From positions 6,532 through 70,531 of the forward strand of contig JACJWK010000015.1 of the NCBI GenBank assembly GCA_020637195.1: 64,000 bases of DNA, read 5' to 3'. The notes beneath the pieces were generated by a model. It worked only from the letters and a program-made list of their open reading frames with translations, was not told the origin of the DNA and did no database searches. This stretch comes from Microthrixaceae bacterium. GTDB lineage: Bacteria > Actinomycetota > Acidimicrobiia > Acidimicrobiales > DATDAH01. This document shows, one piece after another, positions 3,092-62,579 of this stretch; positions within the stretch are counted from its first letter, which is position 1; each line of letters starts with the position of its first letter. Made by a program: the position numbers and the translations under genes.

Positions 3092-4221
3092 GACCCCTCG
3101 ACACCGAGCCGGGCCAGGGCCGCGGTCGTGGAGCGCCCGGGGACCAGCGGGAGGAACTCGACCCGGCCGCCGTAGGACCGGACGACGTCGGCCTCGGGGA
3201 CCGCCGCGCCGTGCGGCGGGGCGTAGTCGGCACCCTTGCAGTGCACGTCGGGTCGCAGCTCGGAGAGCACCTCGACCGGCGTCGCTTCCTCGAACACGTG
3301 GACGACGTCGACCGCTTCCAGGGCGGACAGCACGGCGACCCGGTCCTCGACCGGGAACACGGGCCGATCGGGGCCCTTCGACGCCCGGACCGTCGAGTCG
3401 GCGTTGACGCCGACGATCAGCACGTCACCCAACCGCCGTGCGGCCTGGAGGAACGTGACGTGGCCGACGTGCAACACGTCGAACACCCCGTTGGTCCACA
3501 CGACCGTGCGCCCGAGGCGCCCGAGGCGCGCCCGCTCGGCCAGCAGCTCGGGCCGCGCCAGGACCGCGGCCGGGGCCCCCGCAGGCCGCGGCGACCGCGC
3601 GGCGGCGCGGTCCTCGCCGTCCCGGCCGGCCGCCGTGACGGCCGCGTCGACCGCCTCGCACAGGAGGTGCCCGATCGTGAGGTGGACCTCCTGGATGCGG
3701 GCCGTCTCGGTCGACGGCACCACGACGGCGTGATCGCAACGGGCGGCCAGCTCTCCTCCCCCGGCGCCCGTCAGCCCGACGACGGTGATGCCGAGTGCAC
3801 GGGCGGCGGCGACCCCCTCGAGCACGTTCGGTGACGCGCCGCTGGTGCTCAGCGCCAAGGCGACGTCCCCCGGCCGGCCCAGCGCGGTGAGCTGGCGGGC
3901 GAAGACCTGGTCGAAGCCGAAGTCGTTGGCGATGGCGGTCAGTGCCGAGGTGTCGACCGTCAACGCGATCGCCCGCAGGCCCGGCCGATCCCGCTCGTAG
4001 CGACCCACGAGCTCGGACGCGATGTGCTGCGCGTCGGCCGCGCTCCCGCCGTTGCCGAAGACGAACAGCGTGCCGCCGCCGGCAACGGCGTCGACGACCA
4101 CGCGCGCCGCGGTCGAGACGGCGGCGCCCTCGGTGTCGAGCAGCACCCGCCGAAGGCTCGCACCGTCCCGGAGGCCCCGGGCCACCAACGCGGCGACGGC
4201 GTCGTCGGCCGGCGCACCCAT
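3088..4221 (-). CDS. gmhA-hldC: Fusion protein: phosphoheptose isomerase (SIS, GmhA-like; about nt 4221-3645) plus heptose-1-phosphate adenylyltransferase (RfaE domain II/HldC-like cytidylyltransferase fold; about nt 3516-3088)
   Basis: N-terminal half has GNGGSAADAQHIASELVGR..STSGASPNV..TARIQEVHL (GmhA-like). C-terminal half has NGVFDVLHVGHVTFLQ (HxGH nucleotidyltransferase motif)..VNADSTV..HCKGADY. ATG 4221 lies 5 nt after the GT9 stop. Confidence 0.8.
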   Translation of the reverse strand: MGAPADDAVAALVARGLRDGASLRRVLLDTEGAAVSTAARVVVDAVAGGGTLFVFGNGGSAADAQHIASELVGRYERDRPGLRAIALTVDTSALTAIANDFGFDQVFARQLTALGRPGDVALALSTSGASPNVLEGVAAARALGITVVGLTGAGGGELAARCDHAVVVPSTETARIQEVHLTIGHLLCEAVDAAVTAAGRDGEDRAAARSPRPAGAPAAVLARPELLAERARLGRLGRTVVWTNGVFDVLHVGHVTFLQAARRLGDVLIVGVNADSTVRASKGPDRPVFPVEDRVAVLSALEAVDVVHVFEEATPVEVLSELRPDVHCKGADYAPPHGAAVPEADVVRSYGGRVEFLPLVPGRSTTAALARLGVEGS

Positions 4222-7667: not shown

Positions 7668-8480
7668 TCAGGCCAGGGGGTCGGCGAAGGGGTCCGCGAA
7701 CGGGTCGGCCGCCACGCCGGCGGCGGGCTCGCCGTCGACGGACTCGTCCACCCCGAAGCGGGCGTAGCCCTCGGCCTCGAGGGCCTGGGCCAGCTCCGGG
7801 CCACCGGACTCGCGGATGCGGCCCTGCACGAGGATGTGCACCTGGTCGCTCTTCAGCTCGTGGAGCAGCCGGCTGTAGTGGGTGATGGCCAGGACGCCGA
7901 GCCCCCACTCGGTGGTGGCCTCCTCGACCCGCCGGCTCACGCGACGCAGCGCGTCCACGTCGAGGCCGGAATCCAGCTCGTCGAGGATGGCGATGGCGGG
8001 GCGCAGCACGCCGAGCTGGAGGGTCTCGTTGCGCTTCTGCTCGCCGCCGGAGAGGTCCACGTTGAGCTGACGGGCGAGGAACCGCTCGTCGAAGCCGATG
8101 CGCTCGGCCTCGGCGACCATGCGGTCGCGCACGTCGGCCAGGTCGCGTCCGGCGGCCCGGAACGACTCGGCGAACAGGTCCTCGAGCGACACGCCGGGCA
8201 CCTCGACGGGGTACTGCATGGCCAGGAACAGCCCGGCCTGCGCCCGCTCCCATGGTTCGAGGGCGAGCAGGTCCGTGCCGTCGAGCGTGACCGCGCCGCC
8301 GGTGACGCGGTAGCCGGGCCGGCCCATGAGCACGTGGGACAGCGTCGACTTCCCCGACCCGTTCGGGCCCATCACGGCGTGGACCTCGCCGCTGCGCACC
8401 ACCAGGTCGACGCCTCGGAGGATCTCGCGACCCTCGACCTCGGCCCGCAGGCCCTCGATCACCAGCTCGTGCGACGCCAC
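7668..8480 (-). CDS. sufC: Fe-S cluster assembly ATPase SufC
   Basis: Walker A GPNGSGKST, signature LSGGEQKR, Walker B ILDELDSGLD. GTG 8480 is preceded by GAAGGAGG. An alternative GTG 8510 overlaps the Rieske stop as GTGA. The 558-aa track ORF is a fused shadow extension. Confidence 0.9.
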   Translation of the reverse strand: MASHELVIEGLRAEVEGREILRGVDLVVRSGEVHAVMGPNGSGKSTLSHVLMGRPGYRVTGGAVTLDGTDLLALEPWERAQAGLFLAMQYPVEVPGVSLEDLFAESFRAAGRDLADVRDRMVAEAERIGFDERFLARQLNVDLSGGEQKRNETLQLGVLRPAIAILDELDSGLDVDALRRVSRRVEEATTEWGLGVLAITHYSRLLHELKSDQVHILVQGRIRESGGPELAQALEAEGYARFGVDESVDGEPAAGVAADPFADPFADPLA

Positions 8481-37656: not shown

Positions 37657-39276
37657 ATGAGCGATGTGACCGCCCCCGACCTCGACGCCGCCGCCGGCGC
37701 CGTCGACCTCGCCCGCGGCGTCGTGGCCGCCGCCACCGCCCGCCTCGCCGAGGTGGGCCTCGACGACCACCAGGCGCTCGCCTACGACCTCGCCCACGCG
37801 GCGTCGGCCGTCGAGATGGGGAGTGGCCTGCTCGGCTACGGCGCCCGGGGCGACACCGAGGGCCGCATCGCCTGCGCCTTCGTGGCGGACGCGGTGGCCG
37901 ACCTCGCCGCCAAGGTGTTCGGCCGCGAGGGCGACTGGGGCGTCGAGGCGGGTGCGCTCGACGGCGCCCGGGCCTTCGTGGCCGCCTACCGCGACCCCGC
38001 CTTCCTGGCGGCGCTGGCCGACGACGAGGGTCCCCGCCACCTCGACGCCGACTTCGAGCTGGTGCAGGACACGTTCCGCCGGTTCGCCGAGGACAAGATC
38101 CGGCCCGCCGCCGAGCACGTGCACCGCACGAACGCCGACGTGCCCGAGGACATCATCTCGGGCCTCGCCGAGATGGGCGGCTTCGGCCTGTCCGTCCCCG
38201 AGGAGTACGGCGGCTTCGCCGGCGGCGGCGAGAGCGACTACCTCGGCATGGTGGTGGCCACCGAGGAGCTCTCCCGGGGGTCGCTCGGCATCGGTGGCTC
38301 GCTGATCACCCGTCCCGAGATCCTCACCCGCGCCCTCGTCAAGGGTGGCACCGAGGCCCAGAAGCAGGAGTGGCTGCCCAAGCTGGCGACCGCCGAGGTC
38401 ATGGCCGCCGTCGCGGTGACCGAGCCCGACTACGGCTCCGACGTGGCCGGCATCAAGGTCACCGCCACGCCCACCGAGGGCGGCTGGCTCGTGAACGGCG
38501 TCAAGACCTGGTGCACGTTCGGGGCGCGGGCCGATGCCCTCATGCTCCTGGCCCGCACCGACCCCGACCGCTCGAAGACCCACCGGGGCCTGTCGATGTT
38601 CGTCGTGCCCAAGCCACGCGGCGAGGGCCACGGGTTCGAGTTCACCCAGGAGGTCGGCGCCGACGGCGGCGCACCCGGCGGCGGGAAGATGGAGGGCCGC
38701 GCCATCGACACCATCGGCTACCGGGGCATGCACTCCTACGAGATCGCCCTCGAGGACTGGTTCGTCGCCGCCGACAACCAGGTGGGGGGCGAGGAGGGGC
38801 TCGGGAAGGGCTTCTACTACCAGATGGAGGGCTTCGAGAACGGGCGCCTCCAGACCGCGGCCCGGGCCGTCGGCGTGATGCAGGCCGCCTACGAGGAGGC
38901 CCGCCAGTACGCCCTCGACCGCCAGGTCTTCGGCCAGCCCATCGCCGACTACCAGCTCACCAAGGTGAAGCTGGCCCGCATGGCCGTGCTCATCCAGGCC
39001 AGCCGCCAGTACTCCTACGAGGTGGCCCGGATGATGGCCAACGGCGAGGGCGCCCTCGAGGCCTCGATGGTGAAGGCCTACGTGTGCCGGGCCGCCGAGT
39101 GGGTCACCCGCGAGGCCATGCAGATCCACGGCGGCTTCGGCTACGCCGAGGAGTACCCGGTCAGCCGCTACTTCGTCGACGCCCGCGTGCTGTCGATCTT
39201 CGAGGGCGCCGACGAGACCCTGTGCCTGAAGGTCATCGCGAGGCGCCTCCTCGACCGCCAGAAGGCCGCCGCCTGA
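37657..39276 (+). CDS. mcd: Acyl-CoA dehydrogenase with about 170-aa N-terminal extension ((2S)-methylsuccinyl-CoA dehydrogenase-like)
   Basis: ACAD core (AVTEPDYGSDVAGIKVTA..GVKTWCT..QIHGGFGYAEEYPVSRYFVDARV). Length and extension match my recollection of Mcd. The family is certain; the substrate is inferred. Confidence 0.7.
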   Translation: MSDVTAPDLDAAAGAVDLARGVVAAATARLAEVGLDDHQALAYDLAHAASAVEMGSGLLGYGARGDTEGRIACAFVADAVADLAAKVFGREGDWGVEAGALDGARAFVAAYRDPAFLAALADDEGPRHLDADFELVQDTFRRFAEDKIRPAAEHVHRTNADVPEDIISGLAEMGGFGLSVPEEYGGFAGGGESDYLGMVVATEELSRGSLGIGGSLITRPEILTRALVKGGTEAQKQEWLPKLATAEVMAAVAVTEPDYGSDVAGIKVTATPTEGGWLVNGVKTWCTFGARADALMLLARTDPDRSKTHRGLSMFVVPKPRGEGHGFEFTQEVGADGGAPGGGKMEGRAIDTIGYRGMHSYEIALEDWFVAADNQVGGEEGLGKGFYYQMEGFENGRLQTAARAVGVMQAAYEEARQYALDRQVFGQPIADYQLTKVKLARMAVLIQASRQYSYEVARMMANGEGALEASMVKAYVCRAAEWVTREAMQIHGGFGYAEEYPVSRYFVDARVLSIFEGADETLCLKVIARRLLDRQKAAA

Positions 39277-39307: not shown

Positions 39308-39352
39308 CGTTCTCGAGGCAATGGCCCCCGGTTTCCGGGGGCTATTGCCTCG
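39308..39352. repeat. 45-bp direct repeat copy 1, containing an 18-bp-stem/3-nt-loop hairpin (39314-39352)
   Basis: cgttctCGAGGCAATGGCCCCCGGtttCCGGGGGCTATTGCCTCG. Identical to 40346-40390. The stem has 17 Watson-Crick pairs plus one G.U. Confidence 0.95.
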
Positions 39353-39403
39353 AGTTAGTTCTGCCCTCTTGACGTTTCATGCTGTTTCAGCGTTTCTAGG
39401 TGC

Positions 39404-40342
39404 ATGGCAAACGGAATCGACCTCGCCATCAGCGTCCTGGCGGCCCGTCAACTCAGCGTGTTCGCCCGGGCCCAGGCCCTCGCTCTCGGCGCCGACGACA
39501 AGCTGATCGCACGGCGCCTCAGTAGCGGTCGGTGGATCCGGGTCGCTCCCGGGGTGTACGGCTTCCCTGGCGTGCCCGAGTCGTTCGATCGGAGCGTGTG
39601 GATCGCGCTGCTCGGCACGAGCCCGCTGGCCGTCGTCTCGTTCCAGACTGCTGCGGCCTACCACCACTACGCCGGGTTCCCGGAGGGCCGCATCGTGCTG
39701 ACGGTCCCACACGGCGGGCACCACCGCATCGAGGGCGCCTTCGTCCATCAGATCAGCGACGTGCTCCCCCACCACCTCACGATCGTCAGGGGCATGCCGT
39801 GCACCACACCCGAGCGCACGGCCGTCGATCTTGCGGCGGTCTGTAGCTTCCCTCGGCTCTTCGAGAGCCTGGACGACGCCCGGGTCAAGGGTCGCGTCGA
39901 CGTCTCCGGCATCGGCGTCGTGCTGCGCGACGTCGCCAGGCGGGGCAAGCCCGGCATCGCCAAGATGGCCCGGGTGCTGGACAAGCTCGAGCCGGGCAAG
40001 GTCCCGTCGCAGAGCGTCCTGGAGCGCAAGCTCCACGAGCTGCTCGAGAAGGGCGGCGAGCCGCCGCTGGTGCGGCAGTACCCACACCCGGGACGGGCCC
40101 TGCCCGCGGCCTGCGTCGACGGCGCCTACGTCGAGGCCAAGATGATCGTCGAGGTCGACGGCCGGCGCTGGCACACCCGCATCGCCGACCTCAAACGGGA
40201 CCACGACCGCGACAACGAGGCCGGCCGGGCTGGCTGGTTCACGCTGCGCCTGCTCTACGAGGACGTCGTCGGCGACGCCGAGGGCCAGTGCGCCCTCATC
40301 AGGGAGACCCGTCTGATGCGCCTCGCACAACTCGCCGCGTGA
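39404..40342 (+). CDS. AbiEi_4-like wHTH N-terminal domain plus DUF559 (Vsr-like PD-(D/E)xK endonuclease fold) C-terminal domain protein
   Basis: N-terminal LIARRLSSGRWIRVAPGVYGF. C-terminal SVLERKLHELL..ACVDGAYVEAKMIVEVDGRRWH..DHDRDNEAGRAGWFTLRL. Confidence 0.8.
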   Translation: MANGIDLAISVLAARQLSVFARAQALALGADDKLIARRLSSGRWIRVAPGVYGFPGVPESFDRSVWIALLGTSPLAVVSFQTAAAYHHYAGFPEGRIVLTVPHGGHHRIEGAFVHQISDVLPHHLTIVRGMPCTTPERTAVDLAAVCSFPRLFESLDDARVKGRVDVSGIGVVLRDVARRGKPGIAKMARVLDKLEPGKVPSQSVLERKLHELLEKGGEPPLVRQYPHPGRALPAACVDGAYVEAKMIVEVDGRRWHTRIADLKRDHDRDNEAGRAGWFTLRLLYEDVVGDAEGQCALIRETRLMRLAQLAA

Positions 40343-40345
40343 GCG

Positions 40346-40390
40346 CGTTCTCGAGGCAATGGCCCCCGGTTTCCGGGGGCTATTGCCTCG
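40346..40390. repeat. 45-bp direct repeat copy 2 (hairpin 40352-40390), 10 nt downstream of the mcl stop
   Basis: Identical to 39308-39352. Confidence 0.95.
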
Positions 40391-40399
40391 GGTTCGTCG

Positions 40400-41344
40400 T
40401 CAGCTCGCCGGGGTGCGGGTGAAGCCGGCGCGCTCGCCGCGGGCGACCACCTTCAGCGCCACCTTGCGGCTGGCCTCGTCGATCATCTCGTCGCCCATCA
40501 TCACCGCGCCCTTGCGGTCGCCGGTGGTGGTGGCCTCCTCGTAGGCGTCGAGCACGGCCCAGGCGTGGTCGAACTGCTCCTGGTTCGGGCCGAACACCTC
40601 GTTGAGGATGGTCACCTGGTCGGGGTGCAGCGCCCACTTGCCGTCGTAGCCGAGGATCTGGGTGCGGGTGCAGTAGTCGCGGAAGCCCTCGGGGTCGCGC
40701 ACCTTCACGTACGGCCCGTCGATGACCTGGAGGCCGTTGGCCCGGCCCGCCATCAAGATCTTCATGAACGGGTAGTGGAAGTAGTCACCGGGGTACTCGG
40801 GGATCTGGAGGCCGCCCTGCAGCGACGGCATCTCCATCGAGGCCGAGAAGTCGACCGGTCCGAGGATGATGGTCTCGGTGCGGGGGGAGGCGGCGCAGAT
40901 CTCCTCGACGTTGATGAGGCCCTGGGCGGTCTCGATCTGGGCCTCGATGCCGATGTGGCCGATCGGCAGGCCCGCCTTCTTCTCGACCTGGGTGAGGAGC
41001 AGGTCCATGGCCACCACCTCGGCCGCGGTCTGCACCTTGGGGAGCATGACCTCCTCGAGGCGCTCGCCGGCGTTGCCCACCACCTCGATGACGTCGTAGG
41101 CGGTCCACTCGGTGTCCCAGGCGTTCACCCGGACGCAGAGCACCTTCTCGCCCCAGTCCTGGTTCTTGATGGCGTCGACCACCTTGGCCCGGGCGGCCTC
41201 CTTCTCGAGGGGCGAGACCGAGTCCTCGAGGTCGAGGAAGATCATGTCGGCGGGGATGCCGGGACCCTTGCCCAGCATCTTCTCGCTGGATCCGGGGATC
41301 GACAGGCAGGAGCGGCGGGGCAGGTTGCGCGTGCGTTCGGACAT
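40400..41344 (-). CDS. mcl: HpcH/CitE-like aldolase-lyase (L-malyl-CoA/beta-methylmalyl-CoA lyase-like)
   Basis: RRSCLSIPGSSEKML..DMIFLDLEDSV..IEAQIETAQGL..GPVDFSASM..YDGKWALHPDQV. Length 314 aa. Confidence 0.75.
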   Translation of the reverse strand: MSERTRNLPRRSCLSIPGSSEKMLGKGPGIPADMIFLDLEDSVSPLEKEAARAKVVDAIKNQDWGEKVLCVRVNAWDTEWTAYDVIEVVGNAGERLEEVMLPKVQTAAEVVAMDLLLTQVEKKAGLPIGHIGIEAQIETAQGLINVEEICAASPRTETIILGPVDFSASMEMPSLQGGLQIPEYPGDYFHYPFMKILMAGRANGLQVIDGPYVKVRDPEGFRDYCTRTQILGYDGKWALHPDQVTILNEVFGPNQEQFDHAWAVLDAYEEATTTGDRKGAVMMGDEMIDEASRKVALKVVARGERAGFTRTPAS

Positions 41345-62540: not shown

Positions 62541-62579
62541 CGAGGCATCGGCGGTCGGATTCCGACCGCCGATGCCTCG
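62541..62579. terminator. Perfect 18-bp-stem/3-nt-loop hairpin after the pirin gene; same family as the 39314/40352 hairpins
   Basis: CGAGGCATCGGCGGTCGG-att-CCGACCGCCGATGCCTCG. The left flank accccgttcc matches accccgttct at 39304-39313. Confidence 0.6.

What the first reader, a model, noticed from the sequence alone, without database searches (positions are those of the whole stretch)
39308..40390. DUF559/AbiEi-like endonuclease gene inserted into a terminator hairpin, flanked by perfect 45-bp direct repeats
The 45-mer cgttctCGAGGCAATGGCCCCCGGtttCCGGGGGCTATTGCCTCG occurs at 39308-39352 and again at 40346-40390. Each copy folds into an 18-bp stem.
- Between the copies lie only a 51-nt AT-rich leader (39353-39403, with a TTGACG hexamer) and one gene, encoding a wHTH plus Vsr-like PD-(D/E)xK (DUF559) protein.
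- Removing one repeat and the insert would leave a single hairpin between the convergent mcd and mcl genes, which is a plausible bidirectional terminator.
- This looks like a site-specific insertion that duplicated or regenerated its palindromic target. It suggests that these multi-copy actinobacterial DUF559 genes behave as selfish, hairpin-targeting (homing-like) elements.
Basis: partly seen in the sequence, partly recalled or inferred. Interest (0 to 1): 0.7.

Follow-up and report, generated by a model that had tools for sequence, protein, structure and literature searches.

The report
Nuclease gene bracketed by cognate palindromes
A gene for a DNA-binding nuclease sits between two copies of a long DNA hairpin that also occurs scattered through related genomes, and relatives of the gene are almost always bracketed by their own matching hairpins, which suggests a REP/RAYT-like protein-repeat partnership built on a different enzyme.

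Summary
Window 39308-39359 and 40346-40397 are 50/52 identical (45 nt perfect). Each folds into a 20-bp hairpin, and together they bracket one gene (39404-40342). The gene encodes a complete AbiEi-like winged-helix module fused to a Vsr/EDxHD-type PD-(D/E)xK nuclease.

The repeats are not a duplicated local terminator. They are two units of a REP-like palindrome family: a 37-nt core, a conserved outer stem GAGGCAATRGC and a covarying inner stem. Solo copies of this family lie just downstream of genes in many Acidimicrobiales genomes.

Thirteen of fourteen family members examined are bracketed by their own palindrome pair. These members are 27-92% identical, lie in at least 8 genomic contexts, and include cultured Tsukamurella. 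Palindrome similarity tracks protein similarity (Mantel r = 0.67).

The module is missing from a strain whose flanks are 99% identical, and the empty site holds a different palindrome. The gene is an old resident here and is under purifying selection (dN/dS 0.12-0.37).

Best reading: a co-evolving nuclease-palindrome unit analogous to RAYT-REP, with a non-homologous enzyme. No activity has been tested. I found no description of this association in the searchable literature.

The parts
39308..39359 (+). Left palindrome unit (52 nt). The hairpin is 39312-39354: 20-bp stem, TTT loop, one G.U pair on the + strand. It starts 31 nt after the mcd stop codon.
   Evidence: Matches the family consensus cGTTCTC-GAGGCAATRGC-N6-loop-N6-GCYATTGCCTC-GAGTTCG.
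39360..39403 (+). AT-rich promoter-like leader. -35-like TTGACG at 39369-39374, an 18-nt spacer, a T-rich -10-like TTTCTA at 39393-39398, then 5 nt to the ATG. A leaderless transcript is likely (inferred).
   Evidence: 47% GC against 73.7% for the window. The block CTTGACrTTTcATG...T-rich hexamer...CATG is conserved in four modules whose proteins are 68-92% identical. It does not reach the sigma-70 consensus scan, so promoter function is an inference.
39404..40342 (+). Gene for a 312-aa protein. Residues ~1-200 form an AbiEi-like module (winged helix plus AbiEi C-terminal domain). Residues ~230-300 form a Vsr/EDxHD-type PD-(D/E)xK nuclease.
   Evidence: Pfam AbiEi_4 and DUF559. PADLOC AbiEi E = 5e-25. 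AlphaFold model pLDDT 92. Fold matches to 6y8q AbiEi (TM 0.67) and 3r3p I-Bth0305I nuclease domain (TM 0.68). Invariant D239, E250, D252, R254, W256, H257, D266, R269, D270. dN/dS 0.12-0.37.
40346..40397 (+). Right palindrome unit (52 nt). The hairpin is 40350-40392. It starts 3 nt after the nuclease gene's stop codon and ends 2 nt before the stop codon of convergent mcl.
37657..39276 (+). Left flanking host gene: acyl-CoA dehydrogenase (mcd-like, 539 aa). It is not part of the module, but it is the conserved left neighbour in relatives down to 48% protein identity.
   Evidence: Pfam. Gene calls on identical contigs. Synteny.
40400..41344 (-). Right flanking host gene: HpcH/HpaI-family malyl-CoA lyase-like (mcl, 314 aa), convergent with the module.
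   Evidence: Pfam.
62541..62579 (.). Solo palindrome of the same geometry (11+6+3+6+11 nt; CGAGGCATCGGC-GGTCGG-ATT-CCGACC-GCCGATGCCTCG). The outer stem is diverged. It lies 19 nt after a stop codon and has no nuclease gene nearby.
   Evidence: The profile search found no second family gene in the window.

Best explanation
The locus is a one-gene protein-palindrome unit. A nuclease with an AbiEi-type winged-helix DNA-binding module is bracketed by two copies of its own cognate palindrome.

**Shown**
- The pairing of gene and palindromes is a property of the whole protein family.
- Palindrome and protein co-diverge.
- The hairpin is maintained by compensatory changes.
- Palindromes of the window's type also exist as many solo copies just downstream of genes.
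- The unit is an old resident that can be present or absent between near-identical strains.

**Inferred**
- The winged-helix module, probably acting as a dimer, reads the sequence-conserved 11-bp outer arms (GAGGCAATRGC).
- The variable but always self-complementary inner stem is needed because the substrate is an extruded hairpin or cruciform.
- The Vsr-type domain nicks or cleaves there. Host repair or replication then copies, converts or relocates palindromes. This would keep the two flanking copies alike and seed solo copies.
- The upstream copy, which ends 14 nt before the -35-like hexamer, may also serve as an autoregulatory operator.

In effect this would be the RAYT-REP arrangement reinvented with a PD-(D/E)xK nuclease.
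For: Twelve pairs flank the gene 995-1102 nt apart (2273 nt in L008, which holds an extra gene), and one is a tandem pair upstream (the exception is).
2. Palindrome identity tracks protein identity: Mantel r = 0.67, with 5 of 10,000 permutations as high. Using one module per lineage gives r = 0.59, 160 of 10,000. Divergent types remain recognisably homologous. GGAGGAAATAACCCCCG matches GAGGCAATAGCCCCCGG at 14 of 17 positions with compensated arms, and L214 keeps the 11+6+3+6+11 geometry.
3. Structure is selected. Across 82 distinct units, 91% of cells are paired. There are 158 compensatory cells against 72 +/- 7 in shuffles (0 of 500 as high), and slid registers give about 37% pairing.
4. Solo copies exist. 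Only one of them has a family gene within its 8-kb chunk.
5. Solo copies favour gene 3' ends: 21 convergent, 20 tandem and 1 divergent, with a median of 40 nt from a stop codon.
6. A genome's solo subtype matches the subtype flanking its gene. In CAWDIO both are the 100-nt nested units.
7. The same two-tier pattern occurs in Tsukamurella tyrosinosolvens with an unrelated palindrome. There the flanking pair is in inverted orientation and solo copies lie elsewhere.
8. The protein has a complete AbiEi DNA-binding fold plus a Vsr/I-Bth0305I-like nuclease domain with invariant catalytic residues, and it is under purifying selection.
9. The flanking copies in each genome share the fast-evolving inner stem, while orthologous modules in other genomes differ. 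This indicates concerted evolution or turnover.
10. The unit meets several criteria that defined RAYT-REP units in PMC2817692: obligate flanking, compensatory mutations, congruent divergence, and a repeat immediately after the stop codon.
Against: - No binding or cleavage has been shown. Everything mechanistic is inference.
- Co-divergence of protein and palindrome could partly reflect shared host phylogeny.
- One family member (L149, 32% identity) has no evident pair.
- For one palindrome type (L208) no solo copy was seen among the held loci. These include about 200 kb of the same genome, but those chunks were selected for carrying the other palindrome type, so dispersal is not a constant feature.
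- The window's own 64 kb holds only the two flanks and one diverged solo copy.
- I could not census whole genomes, so I cannot show that palindrome abundance depends on the presence of the cognate gene.
- A PD-(D/E)xK nuclease has no intrinsic strand-transfer chemistry, unlike an HUH transposase, so repeat propagation would have to rely on host pathways.
- The flanking copies are direct repeats here, not inverted as at RAYT genes.
Confidence: 0.5

Rival explanations
1. Homing-type selfish gene. The palindromes form an independent host REP family. The nuclease recognises and cuts a solo palindrome. Repair copies the gene from a filled locus using the palindrome arms as homology, which regenerates a complete palindrome on each side.
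For: - The Vsr-like nuclease fold is shared with a proven homing endonuclease (PMC3239194).
- The module is present or absent between strains with 99% identical flanks.
- Each flank is exactly one complete family unit.
- Solo copies occupy the same kind of site as the module, namely the 3' ends of genes and often convergent pairs.
- Family members occupy many different intergenic sites.
Against: - The empty alleles do not contain the cognate palindrome, and homology breaks at the stop codons rather than at the repeats.
- Both flanking palindromes stay intact, so a homing enzyme would go on cutting its own locus.
- dS of the gene is at least that of the flanking genes, and the position downstream of mcd persists to 48% identity. 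This indicates ancient vertical residence rather than spread.
- No two near-identical copies were seen at different sites.
- The L208 palindrome type has no solo targets among the held loci, although the sample is biased.
Confidence: 0.25
2. A regulatory insulator for a stationary accessory gene. The gene would be a defence, addiction or repair nuclease related to AbiEi. The upstream palindrome is its autoregulatory operator, and both palindromes are bidirectional terminators that insulate it from the convergent host genes. Solo copies are ordinary REP-like terminators or further binding sites that the protein does not propagate.
For: - AbiEi proteins autoregulate through inverted repeats in their promoters (established knowledge of AbiE systems), and the protein has the full AbiEi fold.
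- The left palindrome ends 14 nt upstream of the -35-like hexamer.
- The left hairpin scores as terminator-like.
- Solo copies lie a median of 40 nt after stop codons.
- Long vertical residence and purifying selection fit a host-beneficial gene.
Against: - It does not explain why the downstream terminator must be the same sequence as the operator in 12 independent modules.
- It does not explain why the two copies evolve in concert.
- It does not explain why the inner stem must stay self-complementary if only duplex binding matters.
- There is no excess of G.U over A.C on the transcribed strand (21 against 16), so RNA-only selection is not evident.
- Ordinary terminators in this window are not 18-20-bp perfect hairpins.
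- There is no AbiEii partner gene.
Confidence: 0.17
3. An autonomous element with solo scars. The whole palindrome-gene-palindrome unit transposes by an unknown route and is later deleted by recombination between its direct repeats, leaving solo palindromes in the manner of solo LTRs.
For: - Direct repeats of about 50 nt lie about 1 kb apart.
- Solo copies occupy module-like sites.
- Many contexts are occupied.
Against: - The empty alleles at this site are not solo cognate palindromes.
- No recent transposition was seen, since members at different sites are at most 50% identical.
- Solo copies far outnumber modules and include tandem arrays.
Confidence: 0.06
4. Coincidence. An abundant REP-like element independently colonised both spacers next to an unrelated gene.
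For: The palindrome family is dispersed and prefers spacers at gene 3' ends.
Against: - Only three such hairpins occur in 64 kb, and two of them bracket this gene.
- The same bracketing occurs in 13 of 14 family members with lineage-specific palindromes that co-diverge with the protein.
Confidence: 0.02

Closest known systems
REP-RAYT units ('REPtrons'): REP-associated tyrosine transposase genes flanked by their cognate repetitive extragenic palindromes (PMC2817692, PMC3116915)
   Same: - A single gene is bracketed by two copies of a palindromic repeat.
- One repeat lies right after the stop codon.
- The repeats are also dispersed as extragenic copies near gene 3' ends.
- Palindromicity is kept by compensatory changes.
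- Protein and repeat co-diverge.
- Inheritance is mostly vertical and long-term.
- In some genomes the flanking repeats are not dispersed.
   Different: - The enzyme is unrelated: an AbiEi winged helix plus a Vsr-type PD-(D/E)xK nuclease, not an HUH/Y1 transposase.
- There is no GTAG/CGTC head on the repeats.
- The flanking copies are direct here (inverted in Tsukamurella), not obligately inverted.
- The hosts are Actinomycetota, not Proteobacteria.
- The copy numbers seen so far are tens per genome, not hundreds.
EDxHD / Vsr-like homing endonucleases (I-Bth0305I, PDB 3r3p; PMC3239194, PMC2677866)
   Same: - The nuclease domain has the same fold (TM 0.68) and a conserved Asp/His active site.
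- An N-terminal helix-turn-helix-type DNA-binding region is joined to a C-terminal nuclease.
- The known enzyme's target is pseudo-palindromic.
- The gene is present or absent at a fixed site.
   Different: - Those enzymes sit in group I introns or between split inteins in phage and marine genes, and they cut an intron-less allele.
- Here the gene is free-standing in bacterial chromosomes, bracketed by intact long hairpins.
- The empty allele lacks the palindrome.
- There is no sign of recent spread.
AbiEi antitoxin of type IV AbiE toxin-antitoxin / abortive-infection systems (PDB 6y8q)
   Same: - Residues ~1-200 reproduce the whole AbiEi fold (winged helix plus C-terminal domain).
- AbiEi binds inverted repeats at its own promoter.
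   Different: - There is no AbiEii nucleotidyltransferase partner gene.
- The AbiEi module is fused to a nuclease.
- The inverted repeat is a 20-bp-stem hairpin that is repeated after the gene and elsewhere in the genome.
Insertion sequences that target REPs (IS110/IS1111-type elements inserting into REP sequences). This is from my own knowledge and was not checked here.
   Same: A mobile gene is found inside or next to REP-type palindromes, with REP used as the target.
   Different: - Those elements encode DEDD transposases and do not regenerate a full palindrome on each side.
- No transposase is present here.

Membership tests
REP-RAYT unit | Gene flanked by two copies of its cognate palindromic repeat | tested here: met
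   True in the window and in 13 of 14 family members.
REP-RAYT unit | Enzyme is an HUH/Y1 (IS200/IS605-like) tyrosine transposase | tested here: not met
   Pfam, PADLOC and fold search give AbiEi plus Vsr-like PD-(D/E)xK. There is no Y1 transposase signal.
REP-RAYT unit | Flanking repeats in inverted orientation | tested here: not met
   The window copies are direct: the same G.U arm and the same asymmetric flanks. The Tsukamurella pair is inverted.
REP-RAYT unit | Repeats carry a GTAG/CGTC head | tested here: not met
   The unit consensus is cGTTCTC-GAGGCAATRGC..., with no GT(A/G)G head. The feature is as described in PMC2817692 and PMC3733652.
REP-RAYT unit | Same repeats dispersed through the genome in extragenic positions | tested here: met
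   At least 113 stretches were found, with about 25 in one MAG. They lie mostly within 150 nt after stop codons.
REP-RAYT unit | Protein and repeat phylogenies congruent | tested here: met
   Mantel r = 0.67 (5 of 10,000); one per lineage gives r = 0.59 (160 of 10,000). Confounding by host phylogeny is not excluded.
Homing endonuclease gene (EDxHD/Vsr-like) | Vsr-like catalytic domain with conserved active-site residues | tested here: met
   3r3p fold match. Invariant E250-x-D252-G-R-x-W256-H257, D266, D270.
Homing endonuclease gene (EDxHD/Vsr-like) | Presence/absence at one site among close relatives | tested here: met
   L008 is filled and L129 is empty, with flanks 99% identical at the nucleotide level.
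Homing endonuclease gene (EDxHD/Vsr-like) | Empty allele carries the recognition site, which the insertion disrupts | tested here: not met
   The empty alleles hold a different palindrome, which shares only the outer GTTCnnGAGGC arm. In the filled allele both cognate palindromes are intact.
Homing endonuclease gene (EDxHD/Vsr-like) | Site-specific double-strand cleavage of the target | not testable with these tools
   Needs purified protein.
AbiE type IV toxin-antitoxin system | AbiEi fold (winged helix plus C-terminal domain) | tested here: met
   6y8q E = 3e-5, TM 0.67. PADLOC AbiEi E = 5e-25.
AbiE type IV toxin-antitoxin system | Adjacent AbiEii nucleotidyltransferase toxin gene | tested here: not met
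   The neighbours are mcd and mcl. There is no such gene in any of the modules.
Vsr very-short-patch repair endonuclease | Single-domain protein of ~150 aa, usually paired with a Dcm-type cytosine methyltransferase gene | tested here: not met
   This is a 312-aa fusion protein with no methyltransferase neighbour.
Insertion sequence with target-site duplication | Transposase gene and short (2-14 bp) duplication of unique target DNA | tested here: not met
   No transposase domain was found. The 52-nt repeat is one unit of a dispersed family, not unique target DNA.

The most novel reading that the evidence does not exclude
AbiEi-DUF559 fusion proteins would be a second, evolutionarily independent class of repeat-associated enzymes. 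They currently have thousands of sequence clusters annotated as 'antitoxin domain' or 'DUF559' proteins. In this reading, PD-(D/E)xK nucleases recognise, maintain and disperse their own cognate hairpin repeats across Actinomycetota. That would explain the origin of REP-like palindromes in these genomes and assign a function to the family.
Probability: 0.35. Interest if true: 0.9.

Novelty: new variant of a known kind. Interest (0 to 1): 0.76.

Why it matters
REP elements and their RAYT enzymes are the only well-described case of a resident bacterial gene that co-evolves with a population of short palindromic repeats. They are essentially a proteobacterial story built on an HUH transposase.

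Here the same genomic signature appears in Actinomycetota around a completely different enzyme, a Vsr-type nuclease with an AbiEi DNA-binding module. The signature is a gene bracketed by cognate palindromes, compensatory evolution, co-divergence and dispersed solo copies.

If the link is functional, it has three consequences:
- It gives a concrete, testable function to a large family of 'DUF559 / AbiEi antitoxin domain' proteins: 368 clusters at E <= 1e-30 and more than 5,600 at E <= 1e-10.
- It explains where the long terminator-like palindromes of these genomes come from.
- It shows that repeat-enzyme partnerships evolved more than once.

The system is tractable, because a cultured strain (Tsukamurella tyrosinosolvens NCTC13231) carries it.

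There is also a practical point. These repeats break short-read assemblies, so the gene is often recovered as an isolated contig of about 1 kb.

Tried and rejected
- Rfam: nothing near any gathering score for the hairpins.
- Classical IS with target-site duplication: no transposase, and the repeat is a dispersed family unit.
- Integron cassette / attC: there is no integrase in any of the contexts examined, and the arms GTTCTC...GAGAAC do not fit the RYYYAAC/GTTRRRY attC consensus. I recalled that consensus from memory. Considered and dropped.
- AbiE toxin-antitoxin pair: no AbiEii gene.
- Vsr-Dcm repair pair: no methyltransferase gene.
- Simple deletion between the direct repeats as the origin of the empty allele: rejected, because L129 and L130 hold a different palindrome and homology breaks at the stop codons.
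- The empty-site palindrome as another dispersed repeat: no other copy in the window or in 207 loci.
- RNA-only function: there is no G.U over A.C bias on the sense strand (21 against 16). The sample is small, so this is weak evidence.
- Enrichment of extra tandem palindromes next to the gene compared with solo copies: a generic hairpin scan is too noisy in 70%+ GC DNA, so the result is inconclusive. Qualitatively, L010, L131, L014 and L210 carry an extra copy beside the gene, and the mcl-adjacent hairpin in L052 is followed by what looks like the start of another at the contig end.
- Within-species empty allele for the window's own lineage: the look-up by the exact Mcl protein returned only filled contigs.
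- Viral contigs: only partial nuclease-domain matches, not the same architecture.
- Sigma-70 consensus scan: no hit for the conserved leader block.
- NCBIfam: no model for the protein.
- Literature: no paper in the searchable library links DUF559 or AbiEi-DUF559 to palindromic repeats.
Full report
**1. The observation**

Window 39308-39359 and 40346-40397 are a 52-nt direct repeat, with 45 nt perfect and 50/52 identical overall. Identity ends sharply on both sides. The 39-nt core occurs exactly twice in 64 kb, and none of 100 shuffles gave a match.

Each copy folds into a 20-bp stem with a TTT loop. The energies are -45.5 and -50.5 kcal/mol (z = -7.4 and -10.1). One G.U pair makes the + strand hairpin stronger than the - strand one, which gives -39.1 kcal/mol.

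Between the copies lie a 51-nt leader of 47% GC (window 73.7%) with TTGACG at 39369, and one ORF at 39404-40342. The right copy starts 3 nt after the ORF's stop codon and ends 2 nt before the stop codon of convergent mcl. The neighbours are an mcd-like acyl-CoA dehydrogenase, a mesaconyl-CoA hydratase and an HpcH/HpaI lyase. A scan of the whole window finds only three near-perfect hairpins of 18 bp or more: the two flanks and a related solo copy at 62541-62579.

**2. The protein**

Pfam finds AbiEi_4 (residues 12-55) and DUF559 (237-299). PADLOC AbiEi models match residues 8-193 with E = 5e-25. NCBIfam has no model.

An AlphaFold model built on 26 homologues is confident (pLDDT 92). Residues ~1-200 match the whole AbiEi antitoxin structure (6y8q, E = 3e-5, TM 0.67). 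[quoted passage not shown] D239, E250, D252, R254, W256, H257, D266, R269 and D270 are invariant across homologues of 42-92% identity. This is the Vsr/EDxHD-type active-site pattern described in PMC3239194.

No AbiEii toxin gene and no methyltransferase gene is adjacent. The family is large: 368 clusters (50% identity) at E <= 1e-30 and 5,626 at E <= 1e-10, nearly all about 310 aa.

**3. The repeats are units of a dispersed palindrome family**

Diverged orthologues downstream of mcd (92%, 72% and 68% identity) are all bracketed by hairpins. These share the outer stem GAGGCAATRGC...GCYATTGCCTC but differ in the inner stem and loop.

Most are in Acidimicrobiales and Microthrixaceae MAGs, with many per genome, including about 25 stretches in one MAG. 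The core is almost always 37 nt (11+6+3+6+11).

Across 82 distinct units, 91% of stem cells pair. There are 158 compensatory cells against 72 +/- 7 in shuffles (0 of 500), and slid registers give about 37%. The outer stem was fixed by the search pattern, so it says nothing here. The signal comes from the inner stem and the flanking arms.

Only one of these stretches has a family gene within its 8-kb chunk, by tblastn and by profile search. The great majority are therefore solo copies.

Solo copies favour gene 3' ends. A crude gene finder gave 21 convergent, 20 tandem and 1 divergent. 52 of 82 lie within 150 nt downstream of a stop codon, with a median of 40 nt. G.U and A.C mismatches are equally common on the sense strand (21 against 16), so there is no sign of RNA-only selection. 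There is no Rfam match.

**4. Paired palindromes are a property of the protein family**

I looked up further homologues, chosen only for divergence and contig length. All those at 43-51% identity are bracketed by their own palindrome pair, in unrelated housekeeping neighbourhoods.

| Locus | Protein, identity to window | Palindrome | Arrangement |
|---|---|---|---|
| L209 | P0016, 51% | GACGCAAT...ATTGCGTC, a compensated change in the 'conserved' stem | pair, spacing 1040 |
| L210/L211 | P0019, 48%, again downstream of mch-mcd | GACGCAAT type | two tandem copies upstream |
| L208 | P0061, 46% | GGAGGAAATAaCCCCCG...; 14 of 17 positions identical to the window type, with compensated arms | pair, spacing 1026 |
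| L213 | P0079, 46% | GTTCTGAAGGCCGGGCC... | pair, spacing 1022 |
| L214 | P0087, 44% | GGATGCATACC-TGTCGG-ATT-..., the same 37-nt geometry | pair, spacing 1098 |
| L215 | P0113, 43% | CTCGACCTCTCCGCCGTCGG... | pair, spacing 1025 |
| L054 | about 50%; frameshifted in the assembly | 100-nt nested palindromes of the subtype that is also solo in that genome | pair, spacing 1102 |

A 27%-identical 'DUF559 domain-containing protein' of cultured Tsukamurella tyrosinosolvens NCTC13231 is flanked by 41-nt palindromes TGCGGTGGAT...ATCCACCGCA, 995 nt apart and in inverted orientation. Solo copies lie in other records of that strain. One sits 9 nt from both stop codons of a convergent gene pair.

One member (L149, 32% identity) shows no pair. 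The tally is 13 of 14.

Palindrome identity tracks protein identity: Mantel r = 0.67 (5 of 10,000), or r = 0.59 (160 of 10,000) with one module per lineage. The two copies within a module are 79-100% identical.

**5. History at this locus**

L008 (filled) and L129 (empty) have Mcd 99% and Mcl 100% identical. Their flanks are about 99% identical at the nucleotide level. Homology stops at the mcd stop codon and resumes 12 nt inside the mcl 3' end, so 2,364 nt in L008 correspond to 114 nt in L129.

L129 and L130 share an 'empty' allele with a different long palindrome, GGTTCGTGAGGCTGCGCTGC...GCAGCGaaGCCTCACGAACC. It shares only the outer GTTCnnGAGGC arm with the family and was not found elsewhere. 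The empty site is therefore not 'one copy of the repeat'. The two alleles look like alternative cassettes exchanged by recombination in the flanking genes.

More distant relatives lack the gene and have mcd-mcl spacers of 33 nt to 2.5 kb.

The nuclease gene is under purifying selection (dN/dS 0.12-0.37). Its dS is at least that of mcd and mcl in the same genome pairs, for example 0.79 against 0.23-0.33. Its position downstream of mcd persists to 48% identity. It is an old, mostly vertically inherited resident and not a recent invader.

Within each genome the flanking copies share the fast-evolving inner stem, while orthologous modules differ. This means concerted evolution or turnover of the pair. 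A promoter-like block, CTTGACrTTTcATG followed by a T-rich hexamer and then CATG, is conserved in four modules. It misses the sigma-70 consensus scan.

**6. Interpretation**

Chance flanking by an abundant repeat is excluded by the family-wide, lineage-specific pairing.

It captures the real gene-palindrome link and the presence/absence polymorphism, and it passed its own refutation tests. However, the flanks are family units that co-diverge with the protein, the empty allele lacks them, and the gene shows no recent spread.

The pattern meets most of the criteria that defined RAYT-REP units: obligate flanking, compensatory mutations, congruent divergence, a repeat immediately after the stop codon, and dispersed solo copies (PMC2817692). 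It fails those tied to the HUH enzyme, the GTAG head and the inverted orientation. I therefore file it as working like a RAYT-REP unit without being a member of that family.

The most likely mechanism is inferred, not shown. The AbiEi winged helix reads the conserved outer arms. The self-complementary inner stem is needed because the substrate is an extruded hairpin or cruciform. The Vsr-type domain nicks there, and host repair or replication copies or converts palindromes. The upstream copy may double as an operator.

Homing into solo palindromes, and a purely regulatory operator-and-terminator role, remain live rivals.

**7. Novelty**

Searches of the held literature found no paper connecting DUF559 or AbiEi-DUF559 proteins with palindromic repeats. 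Subscription-only literature was not searchable.

I rate this as a new variant of a known kind, a repeat-associated enzyme unit. It has a realistic chance of being a new, independent class once activity is tested.

Noticed in passing
window 62541-62579: A solo perfect 18-bp-stem hairpin, CGAGGCATCGGCGGTCGGATTCCGACCGCCGATGCCTCG. It has the same 11+6+3+6+11 geometry and the same ATT loop as the flanking palindromes, but a diverged outer stem. It lies 19 nt after a stop codon and ahead of a same-strand ORF. It is the only other long near-perfect hairpin in the window.
   Followed up: partly
L008 6940-8179: In the 92%-identical module an extra 1.24-kb segment lies between the nuclease gene and the right palindrome. 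It holds a 317-aa hydrophobic ORF on the opposite strand, with no hit in Pfam, NCBIfam or PADLOC, and a GGC-rich repeat tract at about 7959-8012. The junction after the nuclease stop codon (gattctcaag) resembles the start of a palindrome unit, as if the segment had been inserted into the right palindrome.
   Followed up: partly
L054 1293-1392 and 2395-2494; also L025, L031, L063, L078, L099, L106 (one MAG, CAWDIO) and loci of MAGs DASQUY, DASSDL, JBKPAA: A compound subtype. The 37-nt core is nested inside a second, outer palindrome (CAATAGGGGCCG...CGGCCCCTATTG), which gives units of about 100 nt. These occur both as solo copies and as the pair flanking that genome's family gene.
   Followed up: partly
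L129 4930-5050, L130 4930-5080 (empty mcd-mcl sites): The empty allele carries its own ~20-bp-stem palindrome, whose outer arm (GTTCgtGAGGC...GCCTCacGAAC) resembles the family's arm (GTTCtcGAGGC...GCCTCgaGAAC). It could be a very diverged family member or an unrelated terminator. No other copy was found in the held loci.
   Followed up: partly
Loci L133-L203 (relatives found with Mcl): The spacer between convergent mcd and mcl varies from 33 nt to about 2.5 kb among relatives, so it seems to be a hot spot for insertions of different content. What occupies the 0.7-2.5 kb spacers was not examined.
   Followed up: no
Contigs of P0001, P0002, P0004, P0005 (1044-1157 nt), L006, L007, and the end of L052: Many assemblies recover this gene as an isolated contig of about 1.05 kb, or end a contig exactly at the palindrome. 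The ~50-nt repeats break short-read assembly graphs, so the gene's context is often lost in metagenomes.
   Followed up: no
L149 2799-3911: A 32%-identical family member lies next to mcl on its 5' side in another lineage and has no evident paired palindromes. Its upstream region has several short inverted repeats and a 17-nt tandem repeat (3800-3942). It is the one exception to the pairing rule.
   Followed up: partly
L208 and L052 (same MAG, CAZWMT contig 9): One genome carries a family gene flanked by GGAGGAAAT-type palindromes. About 70 kb away on the same contig, mcl is followed by a GAGGCAAT-type hairpin at the contig end. This suggests at least two paralogues per genome, each with its own palindrome type.
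   Followed up: partly
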